Assembly (NCBI GenBank): GCA_965247095.1
Contig: OZ251997.1
Location: forward strand, 4,192,001-4,256,000
Direction of reading: 5' to 3'
Source of the DNA: Candidatus Multivorans sp.
Lineage (GTDB): Bacteria > Acidobacteriota > Thermoanaerobaculia > Multivoradales > Multivoraceae
DNA: 64,000 nt
Below the pieces are notes generated by a model. That model was not told the DNA's origin. It ran no database searches and saw nothing but the letters and a program-made list of their open reading frames with translations. Shown here one piece after another: positions 5,339 to 30,906 of this stretch (within the stretch, counting starts at the first letter, position 1; every line of letters begins with the position of its first letter). The position numbers and the translations under genes were made by a program.

Positions 5339-5769
5339 CGCGGAGAGCGTTCGGGTGCATCGTGCTGGCCGTCTTGCCGGGTGTCGGTGCCGAAGCGCAG
5401 AGTGAAGCGTCGGCCCAAACCTGCGTGGGCGATGCCACCACGCTGTGCCTGAATGGCGACCGATTTCGCGTCGCCGTCCACTGGGAGACCGAGAAGGAGT
5501 CCGGCGACGGAGAGGCGGTGGAACTCACCGGCGACACCGGCTACTTCTGGTTCTTCAGCGAGAACAACGTCGAGGTCGTGATCAAGGTGCTGAACGGCTG
5601 CGCGATCGGCGATGGCGCCTACTGGGTCTTCATCGGCGGCCTGACGGACGTCCGCGTCGAACTCGAAGTCGAGGATGTCGAAGCCGGCGAGTCGAAGACG
5701 TACGTCAACGAAGCCGGGACGCTGTTCGTGCCGGTGACCGACACGACGGCGTTCTCGACCTGCGACTGA
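5335..5769 (+). CDS. Small secreted protein consisting of one Cys-flanked beta domain of unknown function
   Basis: Signal peptide, then CVGDATTLCLNGDRFRVAVHW...GYFWFFSENNVEVVIKVLNGC...YWVF; the same domain occurs twice in 18320-22195. Confidence 0.75.
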   Translation: MTRRAFGCIVLAVLPGVGAEAQSEASAQTCVGDATTLCLNGDRFRVAVHWETEKESGDGEAVELTGDTGYFWFFSENNVEVVIKVLNGCAIGDGAYWVFIGGLTDVRVELEVEDVEAGESKTYVNEAGTLFVPVTDTTAFSTCD

Positions 5770-17112: not shown

Positions 17113-18168
17113 ATGACGAACGGAGAACGGCGACGCGTGGCGCCGATGGTGCGGACAGGTTGCTTGGCCGGCGCCGTGCTCTGGGCCGTCTCTGTCCCGG
17201 CGGTTGGCCAGCCCGAGGCGGGCCCCGCCGGCGAACGCGAGAAGGTCCTGTTCGACTGCGACATCGGTTCGGACATCGACGACGCCTACGCCATGGCGCT
17301 GCTCCTGGCGAGCCCGGAGATCGAGCTCGTCGGCATCACGGTCGGGCACGCGCGCACGCTGGACCGGGCGCTGCTGGCGCTGCGCATGCTCTACGAGACG
17401 GGGCTTGACCACATCCCGGTCTACGTCGGCCGGGAGACGGCGCTTGTCACCCAGCGAGCCGGCAAGCCCCACGACCAGTTCGAGCACGCGCCGTACAACC
17501 GGCAGTTCCACTGGGGGCGCGGCTTCGAAGAACTCGAGCCCGAGTCGCAGCCGGCGGCCGAGTTCATCGTCGAGACGCTGAGCGCCGCACCGGGCGAGAT
17601 CACGCTGCTCACTGTCGGCCCGGTAACGAACATCGGCGACGCCCTGCTGCTCGACCCGGATGTCCTCAAGCACGCGAAGCGGGTCGTCTCGATGTACGGC
17701 TCGATCCGGTCCGGCTACGACGGCGGCGAAGCGCAGCGGGAGTGGAACGTCCTCGCCGATGCGGCGTCCTCGATGCGGTTCGACCAGGCGGTCCAGCGCG
17801 GCGGCACCGACGTCGTCTACATACCGCTCGACGTCACCGACCACGTCCGCCTCGACGCGGAGCGGCGCCTCCACCTCTCCATGCGCGGGACCCCGCTCAC
17901 CGACGCGGTCACGTCCCTCTACTCCCTGTGGCGAGACGAAGAAAAGGGCCAGACCACTCCGCGCCTGTTCGACGCCGTCGCCGTCGGTTTCCTCCTGTGG
18001 CCCGACCTGTTCGGCCTCGAACGCGGCCGCGTCACCGTCGACGAACGGAGCATGACCCTCTTCGACCCCGGCGCCGAACCGACCTCGACCGTCGCCCTCA
18101 CGATCGACGACGCCGCCTTCATCGAACGCATGGTCGCCCGCTACCTGGAGCAGAACCTCAGTCGCTGA
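17113..18168 (+). CDS. Nucleoside hydrolase (IUNH family), secreted
   Basis: DCDIGSDIDD, GPVTNI, EWNV and LFDAVAV motifs; GGAGG RBS at 17101. Confidence 0.88.
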   Translation: MTNGERRRVAPMVRTGCLAGAVLWAVSVPAVGQPEAGPAGEREKVLFDCDIGSDIDDAYAMALLLASPEIELVGITVGHARTLDRALLALRMLYETGLDHIPVYVGRETALVTQRAGKPHDQFEHAPYNRQFHWGRGFEELEPESQPAAEFIVETLSAAPGEITLLTVGPVTNIGDALLLDPDVLKHAKRVVSMYGSIRSGYDGGEAQREWNVLADAASSMRFDQAVQRGGTDVVYIPLDVTDHVRLDAERRLHLSMRGTPLTDAVTSLYSLWRDEEKGQTTPRLFDAVAVGFLLWPDLFGLERGRVTVDERSMTLFDPGAEPTSTVALTIDDAAFIERMVARYLEQNLSR

Positions 18169-18181
18169 GTCCTGCAGCGAT

Positions 18182-18247
18182 GCCAGCAGGTCCCCCAACT
18201 GCTCCAGACTCGCCAAGTTGTGGACGGGCAGGAAGTCGTCGGTGTGG
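18182..18247 (-). repeat. Orphan duplicate of the coxE-like gene 3' end
   Basis: 61/66 identical to 22232-22297; encodes HTDDFLPVHNLASLEQLGDLL; all 5 differences are synonymous. Confidence 0.9.
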
Positions 18248-18319
18248 TAGCCTCTCGGTTTGGCTGTGAGCTTCGCGAGAACTTCTGAGACCGGCGCTGA
18301 ATTCCGCCAAAGACGACCG

Positions 18320-21300
18320 ATGGCGCAGTTGGCCATCCCAGGGACCTGGTCTCGGCCCGTGGCCCTGGCCGCTGCCCTCGTCGCGTTGACGCTGCCGGCT
18401 TCGGCGGTTCGGGCGCAGCGGCTTCTGACCTTGGACCCGGGCGTCGCCGCAGCGTCGTCGGCGGGTGTCCCCGGCCCGTCGATGGGGCCGGTGCCTGTGG
18501 CGGTGCAGGTCGATCTCGAGTTGCTGCGCGGGGGCCCGGCCTGGCTTGAGGTGCCAACACCGGACGGTAGCGTGCTGTCGGCGGAACGGAGCGTGTTCGA
18601 GGACCGGGGGCGCGGCGACCTGATGTGGTCCGGGGGGCAGCGCGGCGCCGGGTACGACACGGTGGTGCTGACGGTGGAAGGAGGACGTCTCGTGGGCCGG
18701 TTCGGCGCGGCGGGCGGCGGCGCATACGAGATCCACGCGGAGCGGAACGGCAGGGGCGGAATGACGCCGATCGGGGGTCCCCGGGCGGGCGGGGCCGCCG
18801 AGCCGTTCTGCGCAGTGGAGGCGGTCGCTCAGGGCGCCCGCAAGGCGGCTGCCCATGGCCGGTCAGGAGACATGGCGGCGGATTCTCCCTTGCGGGTGAG
18901 CGATCCGCAGAGCCACGAACGACTGGACATCCTTGTGGCGTACACGGCCACCGCGGCCGAGAACTGGGCCGACCGCGGCGGGGCCGTGGCGGCGGTCCGT
19001 TACGCCGGCGACTACCTGAAGATGGTGTTTCGGAACAACGAGCTCCCGGTCGAGCCGCACATCGTGCATGTCGCGCAGGCGTCGGCTGCTCTGGATCGGG
19101 CAGGGAGAGACCTGCCCTGGCGCGAGGGTCAGCGATACATTAGTCCTCTGTGGGTGCAGATCGACCGGGACGGGGAACTGTCAAGCCTGCGCCATGAGCA
19201 CCGGGCCGACATGGTGCATCTCTTCACGGGCGAGCGCGCGCCCCTGGTCGGCGCCTGCGGCTCGGCTTACTTGCTTGGCGAGGGCCGTACGGCAGAGAAC
19301 TTCTCCGGTTTCGCCTACGGCTGGACCACGAACAACCCGGTCGTGTGCCCCTCCGACTACGCCGTCATTTTCGCGCACGAGATCGGACACGGGCTGGGCG
19401 CCCACCACGATCCCTGGTACATCCCGAGTCGGAGGTCCCTTTATAGGCCGTACGCTGTCGGCTACGCGAACTTCGACGTCATGCCGAGCCTCGGCACGGC
19501 GATGAGCTATGAGGGCCAGGTCGAGCCGTTCTTTTCGACTCCCCGGATCCGGCCGTTCGGCGCGGTGGTCGGCGTGGCCGGCGAGCAGGACAACGAGGGG
19601 ACCTTGCGCGAGACGGTCCACCTCGGCGTGCGGTACAGCGACTACCTGATGTCGGTGGACGGCCTTCCGGCGGCGCCAGGCGATCTTCGGGTTCAGTTCG
19701 ACGACGGCGCCGCGCGCCTCTCCTGGCGGGACAACGCGCCGGACGCGGACGGCTACGAGGCGGCCTGGAGAGTGGAGGAAGATGTCGGCCACTGGAGCTC
19801 GTGGGAGCTTGTGGCGCTTGAAGGCCGCACCGAGGCGACCCTCCCTCTGGAGTTGACGGGCAGGCTGTACGAGTTCTGGGTCAGAGCGACGGAGGGCGAA
19901 GCGTTGTCTCTGCGCAGCGACATCGTTCCGCTGGTCGTCCCCGGCGAACCGCTTGCGGCGCCGTCGAACGTCTCCGTTACGGTCGACCCCGACCTCGGAG
20001 AGGTCAATGTCCGCTGGACCGACAACTCGGACGACGAAGAGGGGTTCGACGTGCAACTGCTCCAGGACGGCGAGCCGCTTCATCGGGTCCGGGCACAGTC
20101 GGACACGGGGACTGCTCGGTTCATCTGGTTCCACATGGAACTTCAGGTCGGCGCCCGATTCGCTGTGCGCGTGTTCGCCTACAACAGCTCGGGCTATTCC
20201 GAGAGTGGCGAGGCGTCCTTCCGGTGGGCGCACTCGCGGGCGGCGGAGCCGGTTGCCGATGTCGTCGCTTCGGCCGTCGGTCCGACGACGGTGCGGGTGG
20301 CCTGGACGGTCGACCCAGAGATCGACAACTACCGTGTTGACGCGTTTCTCCAAGGTTGGACCGATGCGCAGGTGTTCGCTTCGAAAGATTCCCTCGACGG
20401 CGCGGCTTGGCTGGACTTCGAGGGCCTCGCTCGCGGCGGCCGCTACAGGTTCAGGGTGTTGCCGATCTCCAGGCGGGACTCAAGCTCCGCCTACCTGACT
20501 CTGGGCGGGCGGGCCGCGGGCCCCGAGGCCCCTTCGGGCGTTTCCTGGGTGAAATTGGACGATGGGAATGTCCGTGTGAGCTGGAGGGACAACTCGAGCG
20601 ACGAACTGGGGTTCGCGGTCCAGGTCGGCAGAGTGGCGGGTTGGTGGAGGGTGGCCAGGGTCCCTCCAGACGCGGAATCGGCCATCGTGTATTCGCAGTA
20701 TTCGCCACCGGATGGCCGTTTGCTCCGCGTGTTTGCATACAACGAACGCGGATTCTCCCTGAGCAGTCCCCAACTGCACGGGCCCCCGCTCCTGTGTCAC
20801 GTCACGGCCACCGCCGGCGACGGGGAGGTCTGCGTGGGCTGGGCCGTGTGCATCCGCGAGGCGGTGACCGGGATGCAGGTGCGCTGGAAGGCCTCGGCGG
20901 AACTACCCTTCGATGACGCGGTCGACGCCTGGACGGACCTGCCGGCAACCCTAGTGGAGTACACCGCGACGGATCTTGACAACGGCACGGAGTACACCTT
21001 TGAAGTGCGGGCCGTGGCGCCGGGCGGCGCGGGCCGGGCGGAGACCGTCGACGCGACGCCCCGCGCCTCCCGGAAGCCTTCCTTCGAGCTTGACATTCGG
21101 TGCGACGACGAGCTGTGCCGCACGCTGACGGGTGCGCTGGTGTCGTTCGTGGATACGAGCAACGGCAACGTGACGGAGAGGCGCTGGGATTTCGGCGACG
21201 GCGCCGGGTCGGACCTGCGGTCTCCGACCCACGCGTGGTCTTCGCCCGGCTACTATGACGTCACGCTGACAGTAGGAGACGGTTCAAGTTCGGGCTCGAC

Positions 21301-22195
21301 GACGCGTACGGTGCTGGTGGAGGCGGCGGCGCCGGCCGGTTCCTGCCGGGCCGACGCGGAAACGCTCTGCCTGCGGGACTCGCGTTTCGAAGTGAAGATG
21401 GACTGGTGGACCGCCGCCGGCGAGTCGGGCGTCGGACGGGTGGTTCACGCGGCCACCAACGACTCGGGGCTGTTCCGGTTCTTCGAACCCGAGAACTGGG
21501 AGGTGCTGGTCAAGGTGCTGGACGGCTGCGAGATCAACCGAAGGACATGGGTGCTGGGTGCTTCGGCGACCGATCTGGGCTACCGGATCAGGGTCACCGA
21601 CACGGCTACCGGCGCCTCTCGGTCGTACGAGAACGAGCCCGGCCGAGTGGCGCCGGCGATCGTCGATACCGACGCGTTCCCCGGGGCCTGCGACGGCGTC
21701 GTGTCGGCCGGCGCCTCGGTCGTCGAAACCGCTGGAAGCCGAGTCTCCAGAGGCTTGACGAACGGCCCGGACGGCGCCGAGCCCGCGTTGGTGGCGGCGG
21801 AGCAGCTCACGGGATGGTGTTGGGATCGTGAGGACTTTCTGTGTCTGCATGACCGCCAATTCCTGGTGCAGGTCGCTGCGCATCCGGTGGGCGGAGGGCG
21901 TCACATCGGCCGGGTTGCGCGGGCGCGTACGGACGAGTCGGGCGTCTTCTACTTCTTCGACCCGGAGAACTGGGAGGTGCTGGCGAAGGTGGTGGACGGC
22001 TGTGCGATCAACGGGCACTACTGGGTGTTTGCTGCTTCGGCGACCGATATGGGGCTCCACTTCTCGGTGCAGAGTACGGATTGGGAGCAGGGGGACGTCG
22101 TTCTCAGGGGGTGGATCACCAAGCCGGGCGAGCCGGCGCCGGCGATCATCAACACGGAGGCCTTCGCGTGCGTTACTCTCGCGCCGCCGAACTGA
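18320..22195 (+). CDS. Large secreted metzincin (M12B/reprolysin-like) metallopeptidase with FN3 repeats, PKD domain and two C-terminal Cys-flanked domains
   Basis: HEIGHGLGAHH plus Met-turn TAMSY; repeated W.DNS..E.GF FN3 motifs; WDFGDG PKD motif; two FF.PENWEVL.KV.DGC repeats. Confidence 0.88.
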   Translation: MAQLAIPGTWSRPVALAAALVALTLPASAVRAQRLLTLDPGVAAASSAGVPGPSMGPVPVAVQVDLELLRGGPAWLEVPTPDGSVLSAERSVFEDRGRGDLMWSGGQRGAGYDTVVLTVEGGRLVGRFGAAGGGAYEIHAERNGRGGMTPIGGPRAGGAAEPFCAVEAVAQGARKAAAHGRSGDMAADSPLRVSDPQSHERLDILVAYTATAAENWADRGGAVAAVRYAGDYLKMVFRNNELPVEPHIVHVAQASAALDRAGRDLPWREGQRYISPLWVQIDRDGELSSLRHEHRADMVHLFTGERAPLVGACGSAYLLGEGRTAENFSGFAYGWTTNNPVVCPSDYAVIFAHEIGHGLGAHHDPWYIPSRRSLYRPYAVGYANFDVMPSLGTAMSYEGQVEPFFSTPRIRPFGAVVGVAGEQDNEGTLRETVHLGVRYSDYLMSVDGLPAAPGDLRVQFDDGAARLSWRDNAPDADGYEAAWRVEEDVGHWSSWELVALEGRTEATLPLELTGRLYEFWVRATEGEALSLRSDIVPLVVPGEPLAAPSNVSVTVDPDLGEVNVRWTDNSDDEEGFDVQLLQDGEPLHRVRAQSDTGTARFIWFHMELQVGARFAVRVFAYNSSGYSESGEASFRWAHSRAAEPVADVVASAVGPTTVRVAWTVDPEIDNYRVDAFLQGWTDAQVFASKDSLDGAAWLDFEGLARGGRYRFRVLPISRRDSSSAYLTLGGRAAGPEAPSGVSWVKLDDGNVRVSWRDNSSDELGFAVQVGRVAGWWRVARVPPDAESAIVYSQYSPPDGRLLRVFAYNERGFSLSSPQLHGPPLLCHVTATAGDGEVCVGWAVCIREAVTGMQVRWKASAELPFDDAVDAWTDLPATLVEYTATDLDNGTEYTFEVRAVAPGGAGRAETVDATPRASRKPSFELDIRCDDELCRTLTGALVSFVDTSNGNVTERRWDFGDGAGSDLRSPTHAWSSPGYYDVTLTVGDGSSSGSTTRTVLVEAAAPAGSCRADAETLCLRDSRFEVKMDWWTAAGESGVGRVVHAATNDSGLFRFFEPENWEVLVKVLDGCEINRRTWVLGASATDLGYRIRVTDTATGASRSYENEPGRVAPAIVDTDAFPGACDGVVSAGASVVETAGSRVSRGLTNGPDGAEPALVAAEQLTGWCWDREDFLCLHDRQFLVQVAAHPVGGGRHIGRVARARTDESGVFYFFDPENWEVLAKVVDGCAINGHYWVFAASATDMGLHFSVQSTDWEQGDVVLRGWITKPGEPAPAIINTEAFACVTLAPPN

Positions 22196-22221: not shown

Positions 22222-23397
22222 CTAGATCGCAGCCAACAGGTCCCCCAACTGCTCCAGGCTCGCCAGGTTGTGCACTGGCAGGAAGTCGTCGGTGTGGGGG
22301 AGAGCGGCCACAATACCGCGGGTGAGGGGCTCGTAGCGGGGGGAGCCCAGCAGCGGATTGAGCCAGATGAGGCGGTGGCAGCTTCGGTGGAGGCGTTCCA
22401 TTTCCTTGCCGAGGAGGGCGATGTCGCCGCGGTCCCAGCCGTCGCTGATGATGAGGACTGCGGCGCCCTGGCCGAGGAGGCGTCGGCCCCAGACGAAGTT
22501 GAACTCGCGCAGGGCCTCGCCCGTGCGGGTGCCGCCGCCCCAGTCTTCGATGCGGTGGGCGGAGGCCTGGAGAGCGCGGTCGACGTCGCGTTCGGCGAGT
22601 TCGCGGGTGAGGCGCGTGAGGCGGGTGCCGAAGGCGAAGGCCTCGACTTTCGATACGCCCGGGTCGGCGGATCTCGGGTGGGAGACGGCGTAGATGAAGT
22701 GGAGCAGCAGCCGCGAGTAGGGCTCCATGGAGCCGGAGATGTCGCAGAGCAGCACCAGGGGCCGCCGCCGGTGCTTGCGGTCGCGGCCGACCAGGTCGAT
22801 CAGCTCGCCGCCGTGGGCGAGGTTGCGACGGAGCGTACGGCGCAGGTCGAGGCGGTGGCCGCCGGAGCTGGGCCGGAGCCGGCGGGTGCGGCGGGTCTCG
22901 AGCTGCCAGTGCATGGACGCCATCAACTGCTTGATCTCGTCGAGTTCGTCGCCTTCGAGCCCCGCGAAGTCCTTGCGCCGGAGCGCTTCGCGGGCGCTGT
23001 AGAGGGCCGTATGGGCGGTGCGGTCGCGGTCTTCCGAGCGGTCGCCGTCGCCGTCGTTCAGCGCCAGCTTCTGGATCGCCGACCGCTTCGTCCGCTCGGT
23101 GTGGCGCTGGATCATCAGACCCAGTTCGAGATGCTCGAGTTCGCGCGGGTCGCGGGCCTGCCAGAAGAGCTCGAATGCCTTCTCGAACCACGGCAGATCA
23201 CGTCGCCGGCTGACCAGGACGGCCCGTGCAGCCGCCTTCACGTCGCGCTTGCGGGCGATGTCGACGAGTTCGAGAGCCGCCACCCAGTCCCGGAGCTGGG
23301 TCGGCGTCACGTCCAGGCTGCCCACCCGCAGCAGGCGGCCGAAGAGGACGATGTTGCGCAGCAGGTGGCCGGTGGCCGGCGCTGCCGTTTCAGTCAT
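22222..23397 (-). CDS. coxE: VWA domain protein, CoxE-like
   Basis: LCDISGSME MIDAS, FAFGTRLT, WGGGTRTG, ISDGWDRG and IWLNPL motifs; start trimmed to ATG at 23397. Confidence 0.88.
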   Translation of the reverse strand: MTETAAPATGHLLRNIVLFGRLLRVGSLDVTPTQLRDWVAALELVDIARKRDVKAAARAVLVSRRRDLPWFEKAFELFWQARDPRELEHLELGLMIQRHTERTKRSAIQKLALNDGDGDRSEDRDRTAHTALYSAREALRRKDFAGLEGDELDEIKQLMASMHWQLETRRTRRLRPSSGGHRLDLRRTLRRNLAHGGELIDLVGRDRKHRRRPLVLLCDISGSMEPYSRLLLHFIYAVSHPRSADPGVSKVEAFAFGTRLTRLTRELAERDVDRALQASAHRIEDWGGGTRTGEALREFNFVWGRRLLGQGAAVLIISDGWDRGDIALLGKEMERLHRSCHRLIWLNPLLGSPRYEPLTRGIVAALPHTDDFLPVHNLASLEQLGDLLAAI

Positions 23398-23601: not shown

Positions 23602-24966
23602 ATGAGAATGTTCATCGCGTTCGTTGCGCTGGTGCTGGCTGCCGTGCCCGCAGCAGCCGAGGATCTCTACAACAAGGACGGCGTGCAGCTCTGGACCTCG
23701 GCGCGTCTTGTGACCCGCGATGCGGCGACCTGCCATGTGCTGGAGGACCGATACCCGGACGAGGAGTACCAGCGCTTGAAGGCGAACGAGGGGCAGTCGC
23801 TGCACGTGTGGCGGATGGACCTGACCGCGGCGAACTACTCGGGCAAGGTGATCGAGTACCTGCGCGGCAGCGTGGACGTTGAATCGGAGTGGCCGCCATG
23901 CACCAACTGGGACTGGGACGTGTTGCAGGACTACCCGGGAGGTGTGGACTGGGCGGGTGGCATCCTGAGCTTTCAGCAGGTGACCGACATGCAGCCCGGT
24001 GAGGAGGCGGGCGAGACCATGTTCCTCCTGGCGTTCCATGACCAGGAGCCGGGGTTCGGCCGCTGGAGCATCGACTACAACTTCTCCGAGGCCGCGCCGG
24101 CTTCAGCCGACCGCGGCGTTCCGAGCGGGCGCGCGCCCGGAGCCGGCACACCCAGCGACCGGCAGTCGGCGGCGCCCGGCCGCGCCGCCGACCCGCCTCT
24201 CGCGGCCCGCCCGTCTAGGCAGGCGGGCGATGTGTTCCGGGACACGCTTCGTTCGGGCGGCACGGGCCCGGAGATGGTGGTGATACCGGCGGGGAGTTTT
24301 CGTATGGGCTGCGTGTCGGGTGTGGGCTGCTTTGACGACGAGCATCCGGTCCACCAGGTGACGATTCCTCAGGCGTTGGCGGTCGTGAAGTACGAGGTGA
24401 CGTTCGCGGAGTGGGACGCCTGCGTGTCGGGTGGCGGTTGCAGTCATCGTCCCGATGACGCGTGGGGCCGCGGGCGGCACCCAGTGATGCGCGTGTCGTG
24501 GGATGACGCCCAGGAGTATGTGCGTTGGCTGTCGTCGCAGACGGGTGCTGAGTATCGTTTGCTGAGCGAGTCGGAGTGGGAGTACGCGGCTCGTGCCGGG
24601 TCGAGCACGGCGTACAGTTGGGGGAACGAGATCGGTTCGGGTCGCGCGAACTGCAATGGTTGCGGCAGCCAGTGGGACGGTTCGCAGACGGTGCCGGTGG
24701 GTTCGTTTTCGCCGAACGGGTGGGGCCTCCACGACATGCATGGCAACGTGTGGGAGTGGGTGCAGGACTGCTGGAACGGAAGCTACAGCGTCGCGCCGTC
24801 GAACGGCGGCGCTTGGCAGCAGGGTCATTGCTCCCGTCGCGTTTTGCGCGGTGGTTCCTGGGGCGACGATCCGTGGGACCTCCGCTCCGCGTACCGCTTC
24901 AGGAACGCCTCCGGCTACCGCTACGACTTCCTCGGTTTTCGTGTAGCCCGGACGCTCACCCCTTGA
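23602..24966 (+). CDS. DGR target protein: signal peptide, unknown N-terminal domain, Pro/Ala linker, FGE-sulfatase (C-type lectin fold) domain with C-terminal VR
   Basis: PEMVVIPAGSFRMG, YEVTFAEW, PVMRVSW, RLLSESEWEYAARAG, GLHDMHGNVWEW and RGGSW...GFRVAR motifs; VR matches TR. Confidence 0.95.
   Translation: MRMFIAFVALVLAAVPAAAEDLYNKDGVQLWTSARLVTRDAATCHVLEDRYPDEEYQRLKANEGQSLHVWRMDLTAANYSGKVIEYLRGSVDVESEWPPCTNWDWDVLQDYPGGVDWAGGILSFQQVTDMQPGEEAGETMFLLAFHDQEPGFGRWSIDYNFSEAAPASADRGVPSGRAPGAGTPSDRQSAAPGRAADPPLAARPSRQAGDVFRDTLRSGGTGPEMVVIPAGSFRMGCVSGVGCFDDEHPVHQVTIPQALAVVKYEVTFAEWDACVSGGGCSHRPDDAWGRGRHPVMRVSWDDAQEYVRWLSSQTGAEYRLLSESEWEYAARAGSSTAYSWGNEIGSGRANCNGCGSQWDGSQTVPVGSFSPNGWGLHDMHGNVWEWVQDCWNGSYSVAPSNGGAWQQGHCSRRVLRGGSWGDDPWDLRSAYRFRNASGYRYDFLGFRVARTLTP
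24833..24958 (+). repeat. DGR variable repeat (VR)
   Basis: 126-bp ungapped match to 26262-26387; 21 of 22 mismatches are at TR adenines. Confidence 0.97.
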
Positions 24967-24998
24967 GTCTTTACCTCTTTACCTCTTTGTGGGGGGTT

Positions 24999-25022
24999 CC
25001 AAGGGGGGCTTGCCCCCCTTGG
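24999..25022. promoter_or_regulatory. GC-rich hairpin/cruciform downstream of VR (DGR target-recognition element)
   Basis: ccaagggggg-cttg-ccccccttgg perfect 10-11 bp stem, preceded by tandem tctttacc tctttacc tcttt. Confidence 0.8.
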
Positions 25023-25062
25023 TCCGTCGCGTAGGCTGCGTTGCCAACCTGAGAGCCCCTTC

Positions 25063-25473
25063 TTGACGCCGCACGAGGAACAACCCGAAGGTGGTATTGC
25101 GCCCGCCCACCGCGCCCGCACGACGGGCGCTGCGCTGGAGTCCCACTACCGGTTCATCCTCTGGCTGGTTCCGGCGGTGGAGCGTTTCCCCCGCAGCCGC
25201 AAGTTCCTGCTCGGCGACCGCATCCAGAACACCGCCCTCGATGTACTGGAGCGCCTCATCGAGGCGACCTACACCCGCCGCCGGTCCGGTCACTTGGCCG
25301 TCGCCAACCTGGGCCTGGAGAAGCTTCGCTTCCTGTTCCGCTTGGCCTGGGACCTGCGCGTCCTGGATCGCCGGCGCTACGAGTACGCCGCCCGGTGTAT
25401 CGACGAGACGGGGCGCAAGGTCGGCGCCTGGCGCAAGGTGCATAGTGCCCGCGAGAGCGCGCAATCTGTTTGA
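25063..25473 (+). CDS. avd: DGR accessory variability determinant (Avd, four-helix bundle)
   Basis: RFPRSRKFLLGDRI...LEKLRFLFRLA.DL...YEY....IDETGRKVGAW; lies between VR and RT. Confidence 0.9.
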   Translation: MTPHEEQPEGGIAPAHRARTTGAALESHYRFILWLVPAVERFPRSRKFLLGDRIQNTALDVLERLIEATYTRRRSGHLAVANLGLEKLRFLFRLAWDLRVLDRRRYEYAARCIDETGRKVGAWRKVHSARESAQSV

Positions 25474-26375
25474 CCGCATCGCCTCCTTCGAGGCGCTGCA
25501 CGCGGCCGCGCTGCGCGCCGCGCGGGCGAAGCGTGGGAAGCCCGGTGTGGCGGCCTTCCTCGCCAACCTGGAAACCGAGGTGCTGCGTCTCGAACGGGAG
25601 CTCAAGAGCGGCCTCTACTGCCCGGGGCGCTACACGAAGATCGAGATTCACGACCCGAAGCACCGCATCGTGTCCGCGGCCCCCTTCCGCGACCGGGTGG
25701 TCCACCACGCCTTCTGCGCCGTGTGCGAGCCGATCTTCGAGCGCGGCTTCATTCACGACAGCTACGCGAACCGCGTCGGCAAGGGCACCCACCGGGCGGT
25801 CGCCCGCTACGAGAAGTTCCGCGACCGGTCCCGGTACGTCCTGCGCTGCGACATCTTCCGCTACTTCCACACGATCGACCACGAGATCCTGAAGCGCGAC
25901 CTGCGCCGCCGGCTGGCCTGCGAGCGCACCCTGGACCTGGCGGACCGGATCATCGACGGGTCGAACCCGCAGGAGCCGGTCTACCAGCATTTCCCAGGCG
26001 ACGTCGGAACCAACGAAGTTCCTGGGCTTCGTGCTGCTGCCCGGCGGCCGTCGGCGCTTGCCCGAGGACAACGTCCGACGATTCCGCAACCGGCTCCGCG
26101 GCCTGCGCGACCGCTGGCGGCACGGGACGGTGGCCGAAGACGAAGTGCGCCGACGAGTCCAGTCCTGGATTGCCCACGCCGAGCACGCGGACACCTGGCG
26201 TCTGCGTCAAACGATCTTCCGCGACGGGTGGTTCGACCCGGCGCGGGGGCCTGGCTCTCCCCCCGACGCGTTTTGCGCGGTGGTTCCTGGAACAACAAAC
26301 CGAGGAACCTCCGCTCCGCGAACCGCAACAGGAACACCACCGACAACCGCAACAACAACAACGGTTTTCGTGTAG
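25445..26375 (+). pseudogene. DGR reverse transcriptase with internal deletion of the catalytic core and a frameshift
   Basis: N part from GTG 25445 has PKHRIVSAAPFRDRVVHHA, SYANRVGKGTH and LRCDIFRYFHTIDH up to FPGD. Near 26000 it switches frame to TSEPTKFLGF...WIAHAEHADTWRLR. No GLPIGN..SQ or YxDD motif is present. Confidence 0.9.
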
Positions 26376-26387
26376 CCCGCACGCTCA
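26262..26387 (+). ncRNA. DGR template repeat (TR)
   Basis: Adenine-rich copy of VR with 11 AAC codons in the target frame (RGGSWNNKPRNLRSANRNRNTTDNRNNNNGFRVAR). Confidence 0.95.
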
Positions 26388-26597
26388 ATAGCCGGAGTCG
26401 GCGCCGTCACGGCAGCGCCGGGAGCGCAGTGAGCGTCCAGGGAGGGTCATGATGAGACCCGGTTGCCGCCCCTCTTGCCCCGGTTGCGGGGGAGGGGCGG
26501 CTGCCAAGTGGCCCGGGAGGCCGCTTCACTTGCTTGCATCGCCTGCCGGGCGAAGGTAGATTGCGCGTAGATACCCGCCGGCAGCGTGCTGTCGGCT

Positions 26598-26631
26598 CAA
26601 GGGCTGCTCTTCGGGGCAGCCCTTGCTTTTT
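26598..26631 (+). terminator. Intrinsic terminator-like hairpin with cUUCGg loop
   Basis: caagggctgctc-ttcg-gggcagcccttg followed by cttttt. Confidence 0.65.
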
Positions 26632-26640
26632 GGGGACAGT

Positions 26641-27411
26641 ATGAGGACGAGGGTCTACATTGACGGCTTGAACCTGTACTACGGAGCCCTCAAGGGAACG
26701 CCGTTCAAGTGGCTCGACCCCATCAAGCTGAGCATGGCCCTGCTTCCCCCGACGTGTGTCGTGGACAAGGTGCTCTACTTCACCGCCCATGTGTCCGGCG
26801 TCCAAGACCCCGGCGCTCCGGCTCGTCAGCGGGTCTATCTGAACGCGCTTCGCACGCTGCCGCAGGTCGAGGTGCACTTCGGCAGCTTTCTCGCCAAGAC
26901 GCTCTGGCGGCCGCTCGTGAACCTGCCGGTGGCCGGCAGGCGAATCGCTGCACCCAAACCGGTCATGTTGCCAGCGGGCGACCACGCCGTCTCCGGTCCG
27001 AGCCCGCAGACACTGCCCGTGGGTGGCTACCCGGCACGCGGGGCTGGAAAGAAGAAGCGGCCGAAGGCTTCGGCGCCGTTGCCGGATGCGTTGGTTGCCG
27101 AGTTCCACTCCATGGAGGAGAAGGGATCAGACGTCAACCTCGCCTCCCATCTTCTCAACGACGCTTGGAAGGGGCTATTCGACGCAGCAGCCGTGATCTC
27201 CAACGACACCGATCTCGTGACACCGATCCGGATCGTCACCGCTGAACGAGGCAAACCGGTGTTCATCGTGTGTCCGGGCCGGTGGCAGGTCGCGCCGAAG
27301 CTCGGCCAGGCGGCGAGCCACGTACGACATGTTCGTAGGGCGATGCTCAAGGCGGCGCAGTTTCCCAGCACGCTTCCGGGCACCGCAATCACCAAGCCGG
27401 CAGGTTGGTGA
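26641..27411 (+). CDS. NYN domain (PIN-like, LabA/DUF88) ribonuclease
   Basis: VYIDGLNLYYG, EEKGSDVNLA and ISNDTDL acidic catalytic motifs. Confidence 0.88.
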   Translation: MRTRVYIDGLNLYYGALKGTPFKWLDPIKLSMALLPPTCVVDKVLYFTAHVSGVQDPGAPARQRVYLNALRTLPQVEVHFGSFLAKTLWRPLVNLPVAGRRIAAPKPVMLPAGDHAVSGPSPQTLPVGGYPARGAGKKKRPKASAPLPDALVAEFHSMEEKGSDVNLASHLLNDAWKGLFDAAAVISNDTDLVTPIRIVTAERGKPVFIVCPGRWQVAPKLGQAASHVRHVRRAMLKAAQFPSTLPGTAITKPAGW

Positions 27412-27484
27412 ACAGCGGGGTCGGTCGCTTGGTAGTGCCTTCACCACTCGGCCAGATGCACGCGTGAGTGCGAGCGGACGGAAC

Positions 27485-27715
27485 TCAGGACGTTCCCTCC
27501 CATAGCGCCAGTTCGGCCTCCTCCGTCGTTTCATCGAAGTCAGGCAGCGAGTTGACCAGATGGGCCAGCCTGCCGAAGCGGAACTTCTCCGGCCTGACGG
27601 GAACCAGCCTGACCGCGGGCTTGCCCCTGCGGGCGATGATCACGTCGTCGCCGGCTTCGGCGGCGACGATGAGCTTCGACAGTTGCGACTTGGCGTCGTG
27701 GATGTTGACGAGCAT
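27485..27715 (-). CDS. Phd/YefM (prevent-host-death) family antitoxin, no cognate toxin downstream
   Basis: VNIHDAKSQLSKLI...GDDVIIARRGKPAVRLVP. Confidence 0.85.
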   Translation of the reverse strand: MLVNIHDAKSQLSKLIVAAEAGDDVIIARRGKPAVRLVPVRPEKFRFGRLAHLVNSLPDFDETTEEAELALWEGTS

Positions 27716-27725
27716 CTTGGGCTCC

Positions 27726-29963
27726 TCAGCCTATCTGGCTCGTCTGGCTCTGGTCGGAGGATCCATCGGGCGTCTCCTGCGCGGGAACAGGACGTGCGTA
27801 CTTTGAGTATGTGATGGCCTGAGGGCTTTGTCGCAGGACGTGCTTGACTAGGAAGAACCGGTACGAGCGGTAGGCATACACGGTCGTCGCAACGGCGGCG
27901 AACAAGGCTAGCTGGTTCACCCAGATGGCAGGCAGGGCCAGCGTGGGGAACAGGTGCTGAGGGGCGTGAAGTGCCAGCATGACTCCGATCAGAAGCCAAC
28001 CCGCGACGAGCAGCATCGCCTCGGCCTTGAGGCGGCCGTCGTCAACGGCCGCCGTCCGGTATGCGGCCGGAAGACGGCGACGCACCAACAGGGCCACCGC
28101 TACGAATACCGCTCCGATCAGAGCCAAGCGGCCAGGCCAACCCGCCGCGACGACTGAGGATAGGGAGGACCAATCTGGCATGTGGTCTGCTAGTTCGCTG
28201 CTGAGTCCTTTGAACGTGGCGGTACTTTGAGCCGCCCAGATGGCGGGAACAGCAACAACTAGGGCGCCGAACGCCGCTGCTGCCCGGTTTCGGATCGTGC
28301 GGTCGTCGTCACCGCGTGGGCCAGCGTCCGAGAAGGACTCGCACTTCTGCCGCTGTACCTGCCTCCACCAGATGCTGAGGTCGATGAGACGCCGCCCGAA
28401 GTAGCCTAGGAAGGAGAAGACCACCGCGGCCGTGGCCGCGGTCCGCCATCCTTCAGCTTGGAGCGCCAGCGAGAGCGAGCTGTAGGTTCCGAGCAGCACC
28501 AGCAGGGGCACGAAACTATAGAGCCAGAACAGCAGCTTCCAGTACACACGGCGACGGAACCATTGCGGTCGCTCCGAGACGGATTCCTTCTTGCCGTCCA
28601 CGGCCCGATCGAGAATTCGTCGGAACAGACACTGATCCGCCCAGTACTTGCTGTGTGCAACTCCGGGGACGGAGTAGCGGTTGAAGACGACATCCTCCCT
28701 GCACCGGAATACAGCGTTGTAGCCGCACGTCCGTTGCACCACATCGAGCCTGTGCCCGACCGGGTCCAGCTCGTCGCAGTAGTTGAAGTGATCTATCTTC
28801 CGTGGCTTGTGCGACTTGAAGCGACCACTCAGGCTGCCGAAGGCGCTGATGAGGTTGCTAGTCAGCAGGTACCGGTAGTTCGTCCACCAGATCGTCAGGT
28901 ATTTGTCGATGGGGGAGCCCAACGTTACAAAGCTCTGCACACGGTTGATCCAGCGTGTGTCGGGCAAGGTGAAGTTGCAGCCGCCACGGGCGTACCCTGG
29001 GAACTTCCAACTGCGCTTGTGGCCGAGCCGGACGCTCCAGCTTGCGCTGGCGTAGAGCAGCGCATCGAGGCTCATGATGCTGCCCAGGCTGTGAGCGATG
29101 AAGACGTAGCGCGGGTCACGGATCTTGCCCTTCCGCTTGCGCTCCTCTGTGTAGTGCGCGGCTTCGACCCTCGCCATCAGCTCGTGGAAACGGCGAACTG
29201 CCCGACGGCGGCAGCGGCTGTACTCACCGTACAGTTGGACATCTCCGAGGAACTTCACGAAGACGAGTTCCTTCATCTCCTTGAAGCGGAAGTTCATGGC
29301 GAAGCGCACCATGAGCAGAGTGTCGGCGAGGAGGTACAGGATGCGGCGGATCCAGAGCGGTACTTTGGCGTCCTCGGCGGCTTGGATTTCCTTCTGGAAC
29401 TTGGCCCTCTCGGCGGCGTTCTCGGTAGCTTGGCTTTCCTTCTGGGTCCTGGCCCTCTCGGCGGCGGTCTCGGCAGCTTCGTGCTTGCGCAGCAGGCGCC
29501 CCAGCAGACCCTTGGCCCACAGGTCGACGTCTTGTCCGACGTGCTCTACTGAGTCCTGCGTCACGTCGGACCAGCAGAGGTCCACGAACCGCAGGTTCTG
29601 CCCGCAGGTCGCCGGCTCTCCCAGGAACGGCTGATCGGGAGGAGAATCTGGCGAGGCAGGAATGCCGTCGAACTCCATCCAGGGCTGTTCAGTGACCGGG
29701 ACCTTCGACGGCCCCGTCTGCCCACTGGCTCGCCCGAGGGTGAGAACATCCCGCTTGTCGTCCTTCTTGGCGCCACGTCGTGCTTCGGCAAAGCGGTTGA
29801 CGACGTTGATCGCACACTCGTTCTTGCGCTGCTCCCCTATGCCGTGAACCACGACAACGTAGGTCACGGAGTCGGCCGGCGATTCAGCGCGCTTCTCGCC
29901 CATGGACTTACTCATGATGCCGGGTCCGCTGGAAGGGATGTCCGCCGCCGCCGCTTCAGTCAC
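27726..29963 (-). CDS. Hypothetical alpha/beta-hydrolase-like protein with C-terminal transmembrane helices (true start may be 29915 or 29903)
   Basis: VVHGIGEQ, IAHSLGS nucleophile elbow, FVTLGSP; about 6 hydrophobic segments. Confidence 0.65.
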   Translation of the reverse strand: MTEAAAADIPSSGPGIMSKSMGEKRAESPADSVTYVVVVHGIGEQRKNECAINVVNRFAEARRGAKKDDKRDVLTLGRASGQTGPSKVPVTEQPWMEFDGIPASPDSPPDQPFLGEPATCGQNLRFVDLCWSDVTQDSVEHVGQDVDLWAKGLLGRLLRKHEAAETAAERARTQKESQATENAAERAKFQKEIQAAEDAKVPLWIRRILYLLADTLLMVRFAMNFRFKEMKELVFVKFLGDVQLYGEYSRCRRRAVRRFHELMARVEAAHYTEERKRKGKIRDPRYVFIAHSLGSIMSLDALLYASASWSVRLGHKRSWKFPGYARGGCNFTLPDTRWINRVQSFVTLGSPIDKYLTIWWTNYRYLLTSNLISAFGSLSGRFKSHKPRKIDHFNYCDELDPVGHRLDVVQRTCGYNAVFRCREDVVFNRYSVPGVAHSKYWADQCLFRRILDRAVDGKKESVSERPQWFRRRVYWKLLFWLYSFVPLLVLLGTYSSLSLALQAEGWRTAATAAVVFSFLGYFGRRLIDLSIWWRQVQRQKCESFSDAGPRGDDDRTIRNRAAAAFGALVVAVPAIWAAQSTATFKGLSSELADHMPDWSSLSSVVAAGWPGRLALIGAVFVAVALLVRRRLPAAYRTAAVDDGRLKAEAMLLVAGWLLIGVMLALHAPQHLFPTLALPAIWVNQLALFAAVATTVYAYRSYRFFLVKHVLRQSPQAITYSKYARPVPAQETPDGSSDQSQTSQIG

Positions 29964-30906
29964 CTGTGGACTGGCTCTTCCGGAGCAGCCGGCGGACCGC
30001 CTCGTCGTCGATCTTGTCGAGGTCGTCCTGGTACTTGAGGAGCACGCCCAGGGTGTCGCGGAGGATGCCGTCGGAGAGCGTTTCCTGGTCGAGGGCGATC
30101 AGGGCGTTCGTCCAGTCCAGGGTCTCGGCGACGCCGGGTTGCTTGAACAGGTCCTCCTCGCGCAGCGCCTGCACCAGGCGGACGATCTCGGCGGCGAAGT
30201 GCTTGGGCGCTTCGGGCACGCGCCGGAGCACGATCTGCACTTCCTTCTCGTAGTCGGGAAAGTCGATCCAGTGGTAGAGGCAGCGGCGCTTGAGCGCGTC
30301 GTGGACCTCGCGGGTGCGGTTCGAGGTCACCACCGCAACCGGCGGCGTTTCGGCGGCGATGGTGCCGATCTCGGGAATCGTGATCTGGAAGTCGGCCAGG
30401 ATCTCGAGCAGGTAGGCCTCGAACTCCTCGTCGGCCCGGTCGAGTTCGTCGATCAGAAGGACCGGCGGGGCCTCGCCTCTGCGGCCGGAACGGACCGCGC
30501 GCAGCAGGGGCCGCTCGAGCAGGAATTCGGAGGAGAACACGTCGTCGACGGCGGCCCGGCCGTCGCCTCCTCCGGCTGCCTCCACGCCGCGCAGGTGGAG
30601 CAACTGCCGGCGGTAGTTCCACTCGTAGACGGCGGTCGAAACGTCGAGCCCCTCGTAGCACTGGAGCCGGATCAGCTCGGAGCCCAGGCAGCGCGAGAGG
30701 GCCTTGGCGACCTCCGTCTTGCCGACGCCGGGTTCGCCCTCCAGGAAGATCGGCTTGCCCATGCGCAGCGACAGGTAGATCGCGGTGGCGAGGCTGCGGT
30801 CGGCGATGTAGTCCTCGGCGCGCAGGGCAGAGACGACGGCGTCGACGTCCGGGAAGCCGCGGTGGGTGGGGGGGTCGGGGCGCTGGAAACCAGGCGAAAC
30901 CGTCAT
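29956..30906 (-). CDS. coxD: MoxR-family AAA+ ATPase, CoxD-like
   Basis: GEPGVGKT Walker A, LQCYEGLD, LLIDELDR and TSNRTREVHDALKRRC motifs. Confidence 0.9.
   Translation of the reverse strand: MTVSPGFQRPDPPTHRGFPDVDAVVSALRAEDYIADRSLATAIYLSLRMGKPIFLEGEPGVGKTEVAKALSRCLGSELIRLQCYEGLDVSTAVYEWNYRRQLLHLRGVEAAGGGDGRAAVDDVFSSEFLLERPLLRAVRSGRRGEAPPVLLIDELDRADEEFEAYLLEILADFQITIPEIGTIAAETPPVAVVTSNRTREVHDALKRRCLYHWIDFPDYEKEVQIVLRRVPEAPKHFAAEIVRLVQALREEDLFKQPGVAETLDWTNALIALDQETLSDGILRDTLGVLLKYQDDLDKIDDEAVRRLLRKSQSTGD

What the first reader, a model, noticed from the sequence alone, without database searches (positions are those of the whole stretch)
23602..26631. Diversity-generating retroelement that diversified a secreted FGE-sulfatase/CLec-fold protein
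Seen: VR 24833-24958 and TR 26262-26387 align without gaps over 126 bp. By hand count TR has 34 adenines and 21 are changed in VR (12 A>T, 8 A>G, 1 A>C); the only non-A difference (cgc/cgg) is at the 3' IMH/IMH* end. The TR peptide SWNNKPRNLRSANRNRNTTDNRNNNNGF becomes SWGDDPWDLRSAYRFRNASGYRYDFLGF, rich in aromatic residues as expected for a ligand-binding surface. The order is target-VR-hairpin-avd-RT-TR. Established: adenine-specific mutagenic retrohoming, Avd and CLec/FGE targets define DGRs such as that of Bordetella phage BPP-1. Inference: this is a chromosomal, non-phage DGR acting on an exported protein whose ~150-aa N-terminal domain I cannot assign.
Basis: partly seen in the sequence, partly recalled or inferred. 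Interest (0 to 1): 0.92.

Follow-up and report, generated by a model that had tools for sequence, protein, structure and literature searches.

The report
Silenced diversity-generating retroelement with frozen target
This is a genuine diversity-generating retroelement that once rewrote the tip of a secreted lectin-like protein, but a deletion has removed the catalytic core of its reverse transcriptase, so it is most likely a recently silenced member of a well-known system.

Summary
VR 24833-24958 and TR 26262-26387 align without gaps, and 21 of 22 mismatches sit at TR adenines (hypergeometric P = 4e-14). The 22nd is a G/C difference at the repeat's 3' end. It recurs in all 10 VRs and 7 TRs examined in the genus.

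The cassette is a normal DGR: FGE-sulfatase target, hairpin, Avd, RT, TR. This is architecture B2 of Wu et al. 2018. It lies at a conserved chromosomal site in a Thermoanaerobaculia genome and no phage genes are nearby.

Compared with intact 397-aa RTs of the same genus, 263 bp are missing at 25994-26002. That removes about 88 codons, including the IGNLTSQ and YVDD motifs, and shifts the frame. No other reverse transcriptase is found in the one-contig, 4.6-Mb genome.

The same junction, and in one case an identical VR peptide, occur on other assembled contigs.

Across the genus, 11 of 17 DGR-type RT loci are broken, in differing ways.

Verdict: an ordinary, recently inactivated DGR. Interest is low to moderate.

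The parts
23602..24966 (+). Target gene, 454 aa. It has a Sec-type signal peptide (inferred from the sequence), an unassigned N-terminal beta-sandwich domain (aa 20-170), a Pro/Ala/Arg-rich linker, and an FGE-sulfatase (CLec-type) domain at aa 222-450 that ends in the VR.
   Evidence: ORF. Pfam PF03781 E 3.7e-60 over aa 222-450. Best solved relatives are PvdO 5hha (E 4.4e-51) and, further off, Treponema TvpA 2y3c (E 1.6e-11). N-terminal domain.
24833..24958 (+). Variable repeat (VR), the last 42 codons of the target.
   Evidence: Of 22 differences from the TR, 21 are at TR adenines. Across 9 VRs of the genus, 32 of 33 TR-A columns vary against 20 of 67 other columns.
24934..24958 (+). 3' end of the VR with an IMH-like function (inferred). 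It differs from the TR end by one base, G24951 against C26380.
   Evidence: The same G (VR) against C (TR) difference is present in all 10 VR ends and all 7 TR ends examined in the genus. The 25-nt pattern occurs only twice in the genome, at the VR and the TR.
24999..25022 (+). GC-rich inverted repeat: a 10-bp stem with a 4-nt loop, 40 nt after the VR. It is the presumed hairpin/cruciform target-recognition element.
   Evidence: The stem is predicted, although the whole 131-nt stretch is not unusually stable (z -1.24). It is unique in the genome. It is kept in 9 of 10 VR flanks of genus loci, with an invariant stem and varying loops, and is lost in the most decayed locus, L031. No covariation is available. 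Its role is inferred from Guo et al. 2011 (PMC3240598, passages).
25063..25473 (+). avd accessory gene, 136 aa, intact.
   Evidence: Pfam bAvd PF22296 E 5.7e-17. NCBIfam NF033474 'diversity-generating retroelement protein Avd', 105.2 bits against a cut-off of 80. PHROG 3206 'Avd protein of DGR'.
25445..26002 (+). RT pseudogene, N-terminal part. It corresponds to aa 1-186 of the intact 397-aa homologues and is an open frame.
   Evidence: It is 92% identical to P0006 over aa 1-186. Pfam RVT_1 matches only profile positions 7-106 of 205, at 24.5 bits, below the 29.6 cut-off.
25994..26002 (+). Deletion junction. 263 bp are missing relative to intact relatives. The junction 9-mer is a hybrid of two imperfect 9-bp direct repeats that flank the lost segment in relatives.
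   Evidence: The blastn offsets against L011, L012, L013 and L015 all give 263 bp. Alignment A1. The missing part corresponds to about aa 187-274 of P0006, including IGNLTSQ (200-206) and YVDD (232-235).
26003..26375 (+). RT pseudogene, C-terminal part. It corresponds to about aa 275-397 of intact homologues, is now in a different frame from the N-terminal part, and its last 38 codons (26262-26375, stop included) read through the TR.
   Evidence: Three-frame translation. tblastn finds it in a second frame.
26262..26387 (+). Template repeat (TR), 34 adenines, intact.
   Evidence: It is identical to the genus consensus TR over columns 27-126.
26388..26505 (+). Conserved non-coding stretch after the TR. 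It is the presumed 3' domain of the DGR RNA, a spacer-like region (inferred).
   Evidence: It is highly conserved in 7 loci (A3). RNAalifold predicts three stem-loops with 37 pairs, of which 4 show compensatory changes. There is no Rfam match.
26598..26635 (+). Terminator-like hairpin (12 pairs) with a T-run. It is the probable end of the avd-RT-TR transcript.
   Evidence: The scan found 2 such sites in the region against 2.4 expected by chance, so this is only a consensus match.

Best explanation
The locus is a chromosomal diversity-generating retroelement of the avd-RT-TR type. In the past it copied the TR through an RNA intermediate into the 3' end of the neighbouring FGE-sulfatase/C-type-lectin-fold gene and randomised the positions templated by adenine. 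In this genome the reverse transcriptase gene was then destroyed by one 263-bp deletion between two short imperfect direct repeats. The deletion removes about 88 codons, including the catalytic YVDD and the DGR-typical IGNLTSQ motif, and shifts the frame. No other reverse transcriptase is in the genome, so mutagenic retrohoming can no longer occur. The VR is now an ordinary, fixed coding sequence that encodes one selected, aromatic-rich binding surface. The event is recent, because Avd, the TR, the conserved post-TR stretch, the IMH-like end and the hairpin are all still intact.

Shown here: the anatomy, the adenine signature, the deletion and the absence of a second RT. Inferred: the retrohoming mechanism itself (by homology to Bordetella phage BPP-1), the loss of activity, and that the target protein is exported and binds a ligand.
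For: 1. Adenine-specific TR/VR differences: 21 of 22, P = 4e-14.
2. Avd scores above the NCBIfam equivalog cut-off. The FGE-sulfatase target carries a C-terminal VR.
3. The RT N-terminal part is 90-96% identical to intact RTs of 387-404 aa, mostly 397. One of them, P0006, has PDB 8ub7 as its best solved match, E 2.5e-42, with IGNLTSQ and YVDD aligned to the corresponding motifs.
4. Four intact relatives each give a 263-bp gap at window 25994-26002. The N- and C-terminal parts lie in different frames. The lost segment covers aa 187-274, including both motifs.
5. Pfam RVT_1 finds one place in the whole 4,617,209-bp single-contig genome (98.96% complete). It is this one, at 23.5 bits, below the cut-off, over profile positions 7-106 of 205.
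6. The same junction peptide occurs in proteins from two other assembled contigs, of 75,157 and 67,924 bp (P0001 and P0124). The VR peptide of P0128, from the 75-kb contig, is identical to the window's.
7. Logan contigs of runs X5 and X8 bridge the junction with 0 differences (records 14 and 23).
8. The window's TR equals the genus consensus, and the VR differs from it at non-A positions only at the conserved IMH-like base. This fits a recent stop.
9. The locus is orthologous to loci with intact RTs in G026, G027 and G035, which share its flanks.
Against: 1. No activity measurement exists. The only read-level data available were assembled contigs, which drop rare variants. Low-level VR diversity, or rare cells with an undeleted RT, cannot be excluded.
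2. X5 and X8 are one sample and may be the sample the genome was assembled from. The two other contigs with the same junction may come from related samples. Independence of the support for the deletion is therefore uncertain.
3. Everything except the RT is intact. This is also what one would expect if the deletion were a minority or assembly-selected variant.
4. The hairpin lies 40 nt after the VR and its loop is not GRNA, unlike the BPP-1 element (PMC3240598 passages). Its role here is only inferred.
5. The absence of a second RT rests on one Pfam model. A very divergent RT, or one on an unassembled plasmid or phage, would be missed.
Confidence: 0.85

Rival explanations
1. The DGR is still active in the population. 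On this reading the deletion is a structural variant carried by part of the cells, or one favoured by the assembler, while other cells keep the intact RT and go on diversifying the VR.
For: Such mixtures are described for Thiohalocapsa PB-PSB1 DGR loci, where RT-deleted and intact variants coexist (bioRxiv 10.1101/2023.09.22.558884, passages). All other parts of the cassette are intact. Runs X9 and X10 hold related sequences that continue into undeleted-type sequence. One example is record 31, which starts at 25997, has 19 differences and has 71 unaligned letters. At about 93% identity this looks like another species.
Against: The 0-difference contigs of X5 and X8 carry the deletion. Three separately predicted proteins show the same junction, and the one VR from another contig is identical (P0128). 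Among the best-supported rows shown, none lists a variant inside 24833-24958 or a loose end at about 26000 for X5 or X8. That table is truncated, with 231 and 312 further rows not shown.
Confidence: 0.08
2. The deletion is an assembly or sequencing artefact and the real genome has an intact RT.
For: The genome is a metagenome-assembled single contig, as its named relatives are MAGs. Collapse between short repeats can happen, and the junction does lie in a 9-bp imperfect repeat.
Against: A 263-bp collapse across a 9-bp imperfect repeat is not a usual assembler error. Short-read unitigs of X5 (1143 nt) and X8 (609 nt) span the junction without a difference. The same junction appears in two other assemblies. 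Different lesions in relatives' RTs show that such decay is common in this genus.
Confidence: 0.04
3. The VR/TR pair is a plain gene-fragment duplication that diverged by ordinary mutation, and not a DGR product.
For: The genus is rich in paralogous FGE-sulfatase genes: 41 of 42 genomes have matches, and many have several.
Against: The adenine specificity (21 of 22, P = 4e-14) cannot arise from neutral divergence. The TR sits next to an Avd gene and an RT remnant. Across species the TRs are nearly invariant, while the VRs vary at 32 of 33 TR-A columns.
Confidence: 0.01

Closest known systems
Bordetella phage BPP-1 DGR (mtd VR - avd - TR - brt), the prototype
   Same: It shares adenine-specific TR-to-VR information transfer, an Avd accessory protein, and a C-terminal VR on a C-type-lectin-type fold. 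It also shares a VR 3' end that differs from the TR end (IMH/IMH*) and a GC-rich inverted repeat after the VR (PMC3240598 passages). The RT of a close relative has as its best solved match PDB 8ub7. The identity of 8ub7 as bRT is recalled, since the table only says 'Reverse transcriptase'.
   Different: This element is chromosomal and not on a phage. The order is avd-RT-TR, with the TR overlapping the 3' end of the RT frame. The target domain is of FGE-sulfatase type and not Mtd-like. The hairpin lies 40 nt after the VR and has a CTTG loop, where BPP-1 has a GRNA loop directly after the VR. Above all, the RT here lacks its catalytic core.
Architecture B2 DGRs (core avd-RT-TR) of Wu et al. 2018, NAR 46:11 (PMC5758913)
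   Same: The core gene order is the same, with an upstream target (passages read).
   Different: That set was curated as 'putatively functional' DGRs, and this copy is not functional. 'Acidobacteria' does not occur in that paper's main text. Its supplementary tables could not be seen.
DGRs with truncated RT genes reported by Schillinger et al. 2012 (DiGReF, PMC3521204), and RT-deleted loci of Thiohalocapsa PB-PSB1 (bioRxiv 10.1101/2023.09.22.558884)
   Same: The TR/VR pair still shows the adenine signature while the RT is interrupted. The authors read such cases as 'very recent inactivations' (passages). RT and TR loss with retained targets is also described (passages).
   Different: The lesions there were a transposon insertion, nonsense or frameshift mutations, or deletions driven by mobile elements. 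Here the lesion is a clean 263-bp deletion mediated by microhomology, and no trans-acting RT is available in the genome.
Treponema denticola variable protein TvpA (PDB 2y3c)
   Same: It is an FGE-type C-type-lectin-fold DGR target. It is detected by sequence at E 1.6e-11.
   Different: It is a much more distant relative than PvdO-like FGE domains (5hha, E 4.4e-51). The N-terminal domain is different.

Membership tests
Diversity-generating retroelement (DGR) | A TR/VR repeat pair whose differences are confined to TR adenines | tested here: met
   21 of 22 mismatches are at TR adenines, P = 4.2e-14. The same pattern holds in relatives: 17 of 18 in L025 and in L027.
Diversity-generating retroelement (DGR) | An RT gene homologous to the DGR RT clade | tested here: met
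   The N-terminal 186 aa are 90-96% identical to intact RTs of 387-404 aa, mostly 397. P0006 has 8ub7 as its best solved match at E 2.5e-42, ahead of group II intron RTs at E 8e-20. No formal RT phylogeny was made.
Diversity-generating retroelement (DGR) | An intact RT with the catalytic YxDD and the DGR motif 4, [LIV]GxxxSQ | tested here: not met
   Both motifs lie in the 263 bp that are missing here (IGNLTSQ 200-206 and YVDD 232-235 of P0006), and the frame is shifted. Pfam RVT_1 scores below its cut-off and covers only profile positions 7-106 of 205. The locus is therefore filed as a relic of a DGR, not as a working member.
Diversity-generating retroelement (DGR) | An accessory variability determinant (Avd) | tested here: met
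   NF033474, 105.2 bits against a cut-off of 80. PF22296, 62.6 bits against 40. There is no solved relative by sequence at E <= 0.01.
Diversity-generating retroelement (DGR) | A target protein with the VR at the C-terminus of a C-type-lectin/FGE-type fold | tested here: met
   PF03781 covers aa 222-450 of 454. The VR is the last 42 codons. TvpA 2y3c is detected.
Diversity-generating retroelement (DGR) | IMH/IMH* asymmetry and a hairpin/cruciform after the VR | tested here: inconclusive
   A single G/C difference at the repeat's 3' end is conserved in 10 of 10 VRs and 7 of 7 TRs. The 10-bp inverted repeat is kept in 9 of 10 VR flanks and is unique in the genome. The stem never varies, so there is no covariation. 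The position (+40) and the loop differ from BPP-1.
Diversity-generating retroelement (DGR) | Ongoing diversification of the VR in the population | not testable with these tools
   Only assembled contigs of the runs were available. The one VR from another contig, P0128, is identical.

The most novel reading that the evidence does not exclude
In this Thermoanaerobaculia genus, DGRs may be used and then discarded. In the 42 species genomes, 17 DGR-type RT loci were found and 11 are broken by at least eight different lesions. These lesions include three different internal deletions at or near the catalytic core: this window, G032 and G036. The target genes and their adenine-scarred VRs mostly stay open. 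If this recurrent RT loss is selected, to lock in a useful variant and to avoid DGR-made stop codons such as the one in G027's VR, the genus would offer a natural series for dating and testing the on/off dynamics of DGRs that recent theory predicts (bioRxiv 10.64898/2026.02.18.706561, passages).
Probability: 0.3. Interest if true: 0.5.

Novelty: new member of a known kind. Interest (0 to 1): 0.3.

Why it matters
This locus does little to change the picture. DGRs with FGE/C-type-lectin targets and the avd-RT-TR order are catalogued, and RT-truncated copies are in print.

It has two uses. First, annotation pipelines call a 335-aa chimeric 'protein' here: the RT N-terminus, out-of-frame sequence, and the TR read as an FGE-sulfatase tail (P0001 and P0123). 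That call should be replaced by 'RT pseudogene plus TR'.

Second, the locus lies at an orthologous chromosomal site that holds intact, freshly broken and heavily decayed copies in sister species. That makes a convenient natural series for asking how long a DGR stays on and what happens to a target after it is frozen.

Tried and rejected
1. Remote targets. A search of the whole genome with the TR DNA found only the TR, the VR and a 41-bp hit at 83% identity in a paralogous FGE gene, at genome position 3338231. The 25-nt repeat end, allowing 3 mismatches, was found only at the VR and the TR. No remote VR was found.

2. A second RT acting in trans. None was found with PF00078.

3. Read-level test of VR diversity. 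Only Logan contigs were available, so the test is not informative about rare variants.

4. Rfam scan of 24800-26700. Nothing came close to a gathering score.

5. Fold assignment of the N-terminal domain. The AlphaFold model is good (pLDDT 88.7). Foldseek against the PDB gave no match at E <= 0.001. VIA-align gave only generic beta-sandwich matches, the best at Z 6.6, within the range the tool calls common. No family was assigned.

6. Avd against solved structures by sequence. No hit at E <= 0.01.

7. Hairpin significance by folding energy. The 131-nt stretch as a whole is not unusual (z -1.24).

8. Literature. 'Candidatus Multivorans' gave 0 papers. 'Diversity-generating retroelement' together with 'Acidobacteria' gave 3 papers, none about such a locus as judged from titles and abstracts.

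9. One search failed because my coordinates included a stop codon. It was repeated with corrected coordinates.
Full report
**1. The observation**

The repeat pair is real and is exactly as described. Window 24833-24958 and 26262-26387 align without gaps over 126 bp with 22 mismatches. Of these, 21 lie at the 34 adenines of the downstream copy: 12 A>T, 8 A>G and 1 A>C. One is C26380 against G24951. Homology stops abruptly on both sides. The chance of at least 21 of 22 mismatches falling on adenines is 4.2e-14 (hypergeometric).

**2. Anatomy**

On the + strand lie, in order:
- The target gene, 23602-24966, 454 aa.
- The VR, its last 42 codons.
- A 10-bp GC-rich inverted repeat at 24999-25022.
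- avd, 25063-25473.
- A reverse-transcriptase reading frame that starts at GTG 25445 and overlaps the end of avd.
- The TR, 26262-26387.
- A conserved stretch of about 120 nt, 26388-26505.
- A terminator-like hairpin, 26598-26625, followed by a T-run.

Family assignments:
- Pfam assigns aa 222-450 of the target to FGE-sulfatase (E 3.7e-60) and the second gene to bAvd (E 5.7e-17).
- Avd also exceeds the NCBIfam equivalog cut-off for 'diversity-generating retroelement protein Avd' (105.2 bits against 80).
- The target's C-terminal domain is closest to PvdO (5hha, E 4.4e-51). It still detects the Treponema DGR target TvpA (2y3c, E 1.6e-11).

The order target-avd-RT-TR is 'Architecture B2' of Wu et al. 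2018 (PMC5758913, passages read).

**3. The RT gene is broken**

- Pfam RVT_1 matches the RT frame only over profile positions 7-106 of 205, and below the gathering score (24.5 bits against 29.6).
- A three-frame translation shows RT sequence up to ...HFPGD at about 26002 in one frame. The RT C-terminal sequence (KFLGF...ADTWRL...) continues in another frame.
- The closest intact homologues, at 90-96% identity to the N-terminal part, are 387-404 aa long, mostly 397 (sequences).
- blastn against four same-genus loci with intact RTs (L011, L012, L013, L015) gives the same result each time. 263 bp are absent between two imperfect 9-bp direct repeats, and the window's junction 9-mer (25994-26002) is a hybrid of the two.
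- In the numbering of P0006 the lost part is about aa 187-274. It contains IGNLTSQ (200-206) and YVDD (232-235).
- These two motifs align with the corresponding motifs of PDB 8ub7, the best solved relative of P0006 (E 2.5e-42). That 8ub7 is the Bordetella phage bRT is my recollection.
- 263 is not a multiple of three, so the downstream part is also out of frame.
- Both remaining parts are otherwise open, so a single lesion explains the state of the gene.
- Gene callers have turned the wreck into a 335-aa chimeric protein. Its tail is the TR read in the VR-like frame, which explains its precomputed 'FGE-sulfatase' Pfam label (P0001 and P0123).

**4. Is the deletion real, and is there a substitute RT?**

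- The genome is one contig of 4,617,209 bp, 98.96% complete. PF00078 finds one place in it, this remnant.
- The TR DNA finds only the TR, the VR and a 41-bp hit in a paralogue.
- The 25-nt repeat end occurs only twice, and the hairpin once.
- The junction peptide recurs in proteins predicted on two other assembled contigs, of 75,157 and 67,924 bp (P0001 and P0124).
- On the 75-kb contig the C-terminal target fragment, P0128, has a VR peptide identical to the window's.
- Logan contigs of runs X5 (1143 nt) and X8 (609 nt) cross the junction with no difference.
- Caveats: X5 and X8 are one sample and may be the source of the assembly. Contigs cannot reveal rare variants. A minority of cells with an intact RT therefore cannot be excluded.

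**5. Relatives**

Named relatives are MAGs labelled 'Candidatus Multivorans sp.' and 'Thermoanaerobaculia bacterium'.

- The window's locus shares both flanks with loci in G026, G027, G035, G036 and G014. The flanks are a CoxE-like VWA gene on the left and a MoxR-like AAA ATPase gene followed by a solute symporter gene on the right. It is therefore an orthologous chromosomal site with housekeeping neighbours and no phage genes.
- At that site the RT is intact in G026, G027 and G035. It is broken by other lesions in G036 (aa 166-222 missing) and in G014 (only a fragment left).
- Over the 42 genomes of the genus I count 17 DGR-type RT loci in 12 genomes.
  - Six are open through the catalytic domain: G026 twice, G027, G034, G063 and G035.
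  - Eleven are broken. Seven genomes hold only broken copies.
  - In this count I left out hits that cover only the TR-like tail (query aa 338-397) and three hits at about 30% identity that belong to other RT types.
- The TRs of seven loci are nearly identical, and the window's equals their consensus. Nine VRs vary at 32 of 33 TR-A columns but at only 20 of 67 other columns. I dropped L022's second VR, and columns 1-26, because of a 1-nt register shift.
- Non-A TR/VR differences number 1 of 67 here, 8 of 67 in G032 and 10 of 67 in G014. This places the window's inactivation as recent.

**6. cis elements**

- The single non-A difference is G in all 10 VR ends and C in all 7 TR ends. That is what an IMH/IMH* distinction would look like.
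- The inverted repeat after the VR is kept in 9 of 10 flanks, with differing loops and an invariant stem, and is gone in the most decayed locus. It offers no covariation.
- It lies 40 nt after the VR and lacks the GRNA loop described for BPP-1 (PMC3240598, passages).
- The stretch after the TR is conserved and folds into three predicted stem-loops, with 4 of 37 pairs showing compensatory changes. I read it as the 3' domain of the DGR RNA. This is inferred by analogy with the BPP-1 spacer, which I cite from recall.

**7. The N-terminal domain**

- Residues 20-170 have no Pfam family. They define a family with 295 representatives at E <= 0.001, nearly always at the N-terminus.
- Of 40 members scanned, 6 carry FGE-sulfatase, 7 ankyrin repeats, 4 MORN, 1 TonB_C, 1 LRV repeats and 21 nothing recognisable.
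- Two cysteines and two tryptophans are invariant in 31 sequences.
- The AlphaFold model is confident (pLDDT 88.7, pTM 0.78) and is a beta-sandwich. Only generic matches were found: Foldseek gave none at E <= 0.001, and the best VIA score was Z 6.6.

**8. Comparison and verdict**

By descent and anatomy this is a DGR. By function it fails the defining requirement of an intact RT, so I file it as a recently inactivated DGR with a frozen VR.

- RT-truncated DGRs that still show the adenine signature were reported by Schillinger et al. 2012 and read as recent inactivations (PMC3521204, passages).
- RT-deleted loci with retained targets are described in Thiohalocapsa (bioRxiv 10.1101/2023.09.22.558884, passages).
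- Earlier notes of this scan describe look-alike loci in two other genomes, one complete and one with a broken RT, and several other decayed DGRs. I did not check those notes.

The finding is therefore a new member of a known kind. The most interesting aspect is the genus-wide pattern of repeated RT loss.

Noticed in passing
window 23659-24111 (target aa 20-170): This is an unassigned N-terminal beta-sandwich domain with two invariant Cys and two invariant Trp. The family has 295 representatives. It always sits behind a signal peptide and is fused to different binding modules: FGE-sulfatase, ankyrin, MORN, TonB_C and LRV. It has no Pfam family and no specific structural match.
   Followed up: partly
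window 18260-22195, with direct repeats at 18182-18247 and 22232-22297: A 1311-aa secreted reprolysin-like (M12B) metalloprotease with FN3 and PKD domains is present here. It is absent from the same site in relatives, where 18000-18247 abuts about 22218. The extra 4 kb is flanked by a 66-bp direct repeat at 92% identity.
   Followed up: partly
window 26623-29963: A variable islet lies between the DGR and the AAA ATPase gene. It holds a weak NYN-domain protein (26623-27411, below the Pfam cut-off), a Phd/YefM antitoxin (27485-27715) and a 745-aa membrane-looking protein with no Pfam family (27726-29963). Relatives share it only in part.
   Followed up: no
window 22222-23394 (-) and 29956-30906 (-): The DGR island is wedged between a CoxE-like VWA gene and a MoxR/CoxD-like AAA ATPase gene. 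By recall, these two are usually neighbours.
   Followed up: no
L024 (G027), VR at locus 5441-5566: In a sister species with an intact RT, the target's VR holds an in-frame stop where the TR has its single AAA codon, and one search reports 2 TAG in that gene. A TR with an AAA codon can write stop codons, which is a built-in cost of this DGR.
   Followed up: partly
P0002 (421 aa, metagenome contig of 5709 bp): This is the closest relative of the window's RT N-terminal part, at 96% identity. It keeps the 263 bp but changes frame right at the YVRY(VDD) position. It is either another independent inactivation or a sequencing error.
   Followed up: no
L022, L028, L030 (G026 and G025) and G063: Some genus loci carry arrays of 2-4 or more paralogous FGE-sulfatase targets next to one RT or RT remnant. 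G063 and G025 share an identical RT remnant pattern (aa 137-177 plus 299-395), which suggests an inherited wreck.
   Followed up: partly
intact relatives' RT genes (P0003, P0006, P0010) and window 26262-26375: The RT reading frame runs through the TR in a frame different from the VR frame, so the last 38 or so codons of the annotated RT are TR sequence. G035 has a frameshift in this tail and its RT is otherwise intact, so the tail is probably dispensable.
   Followed up: no
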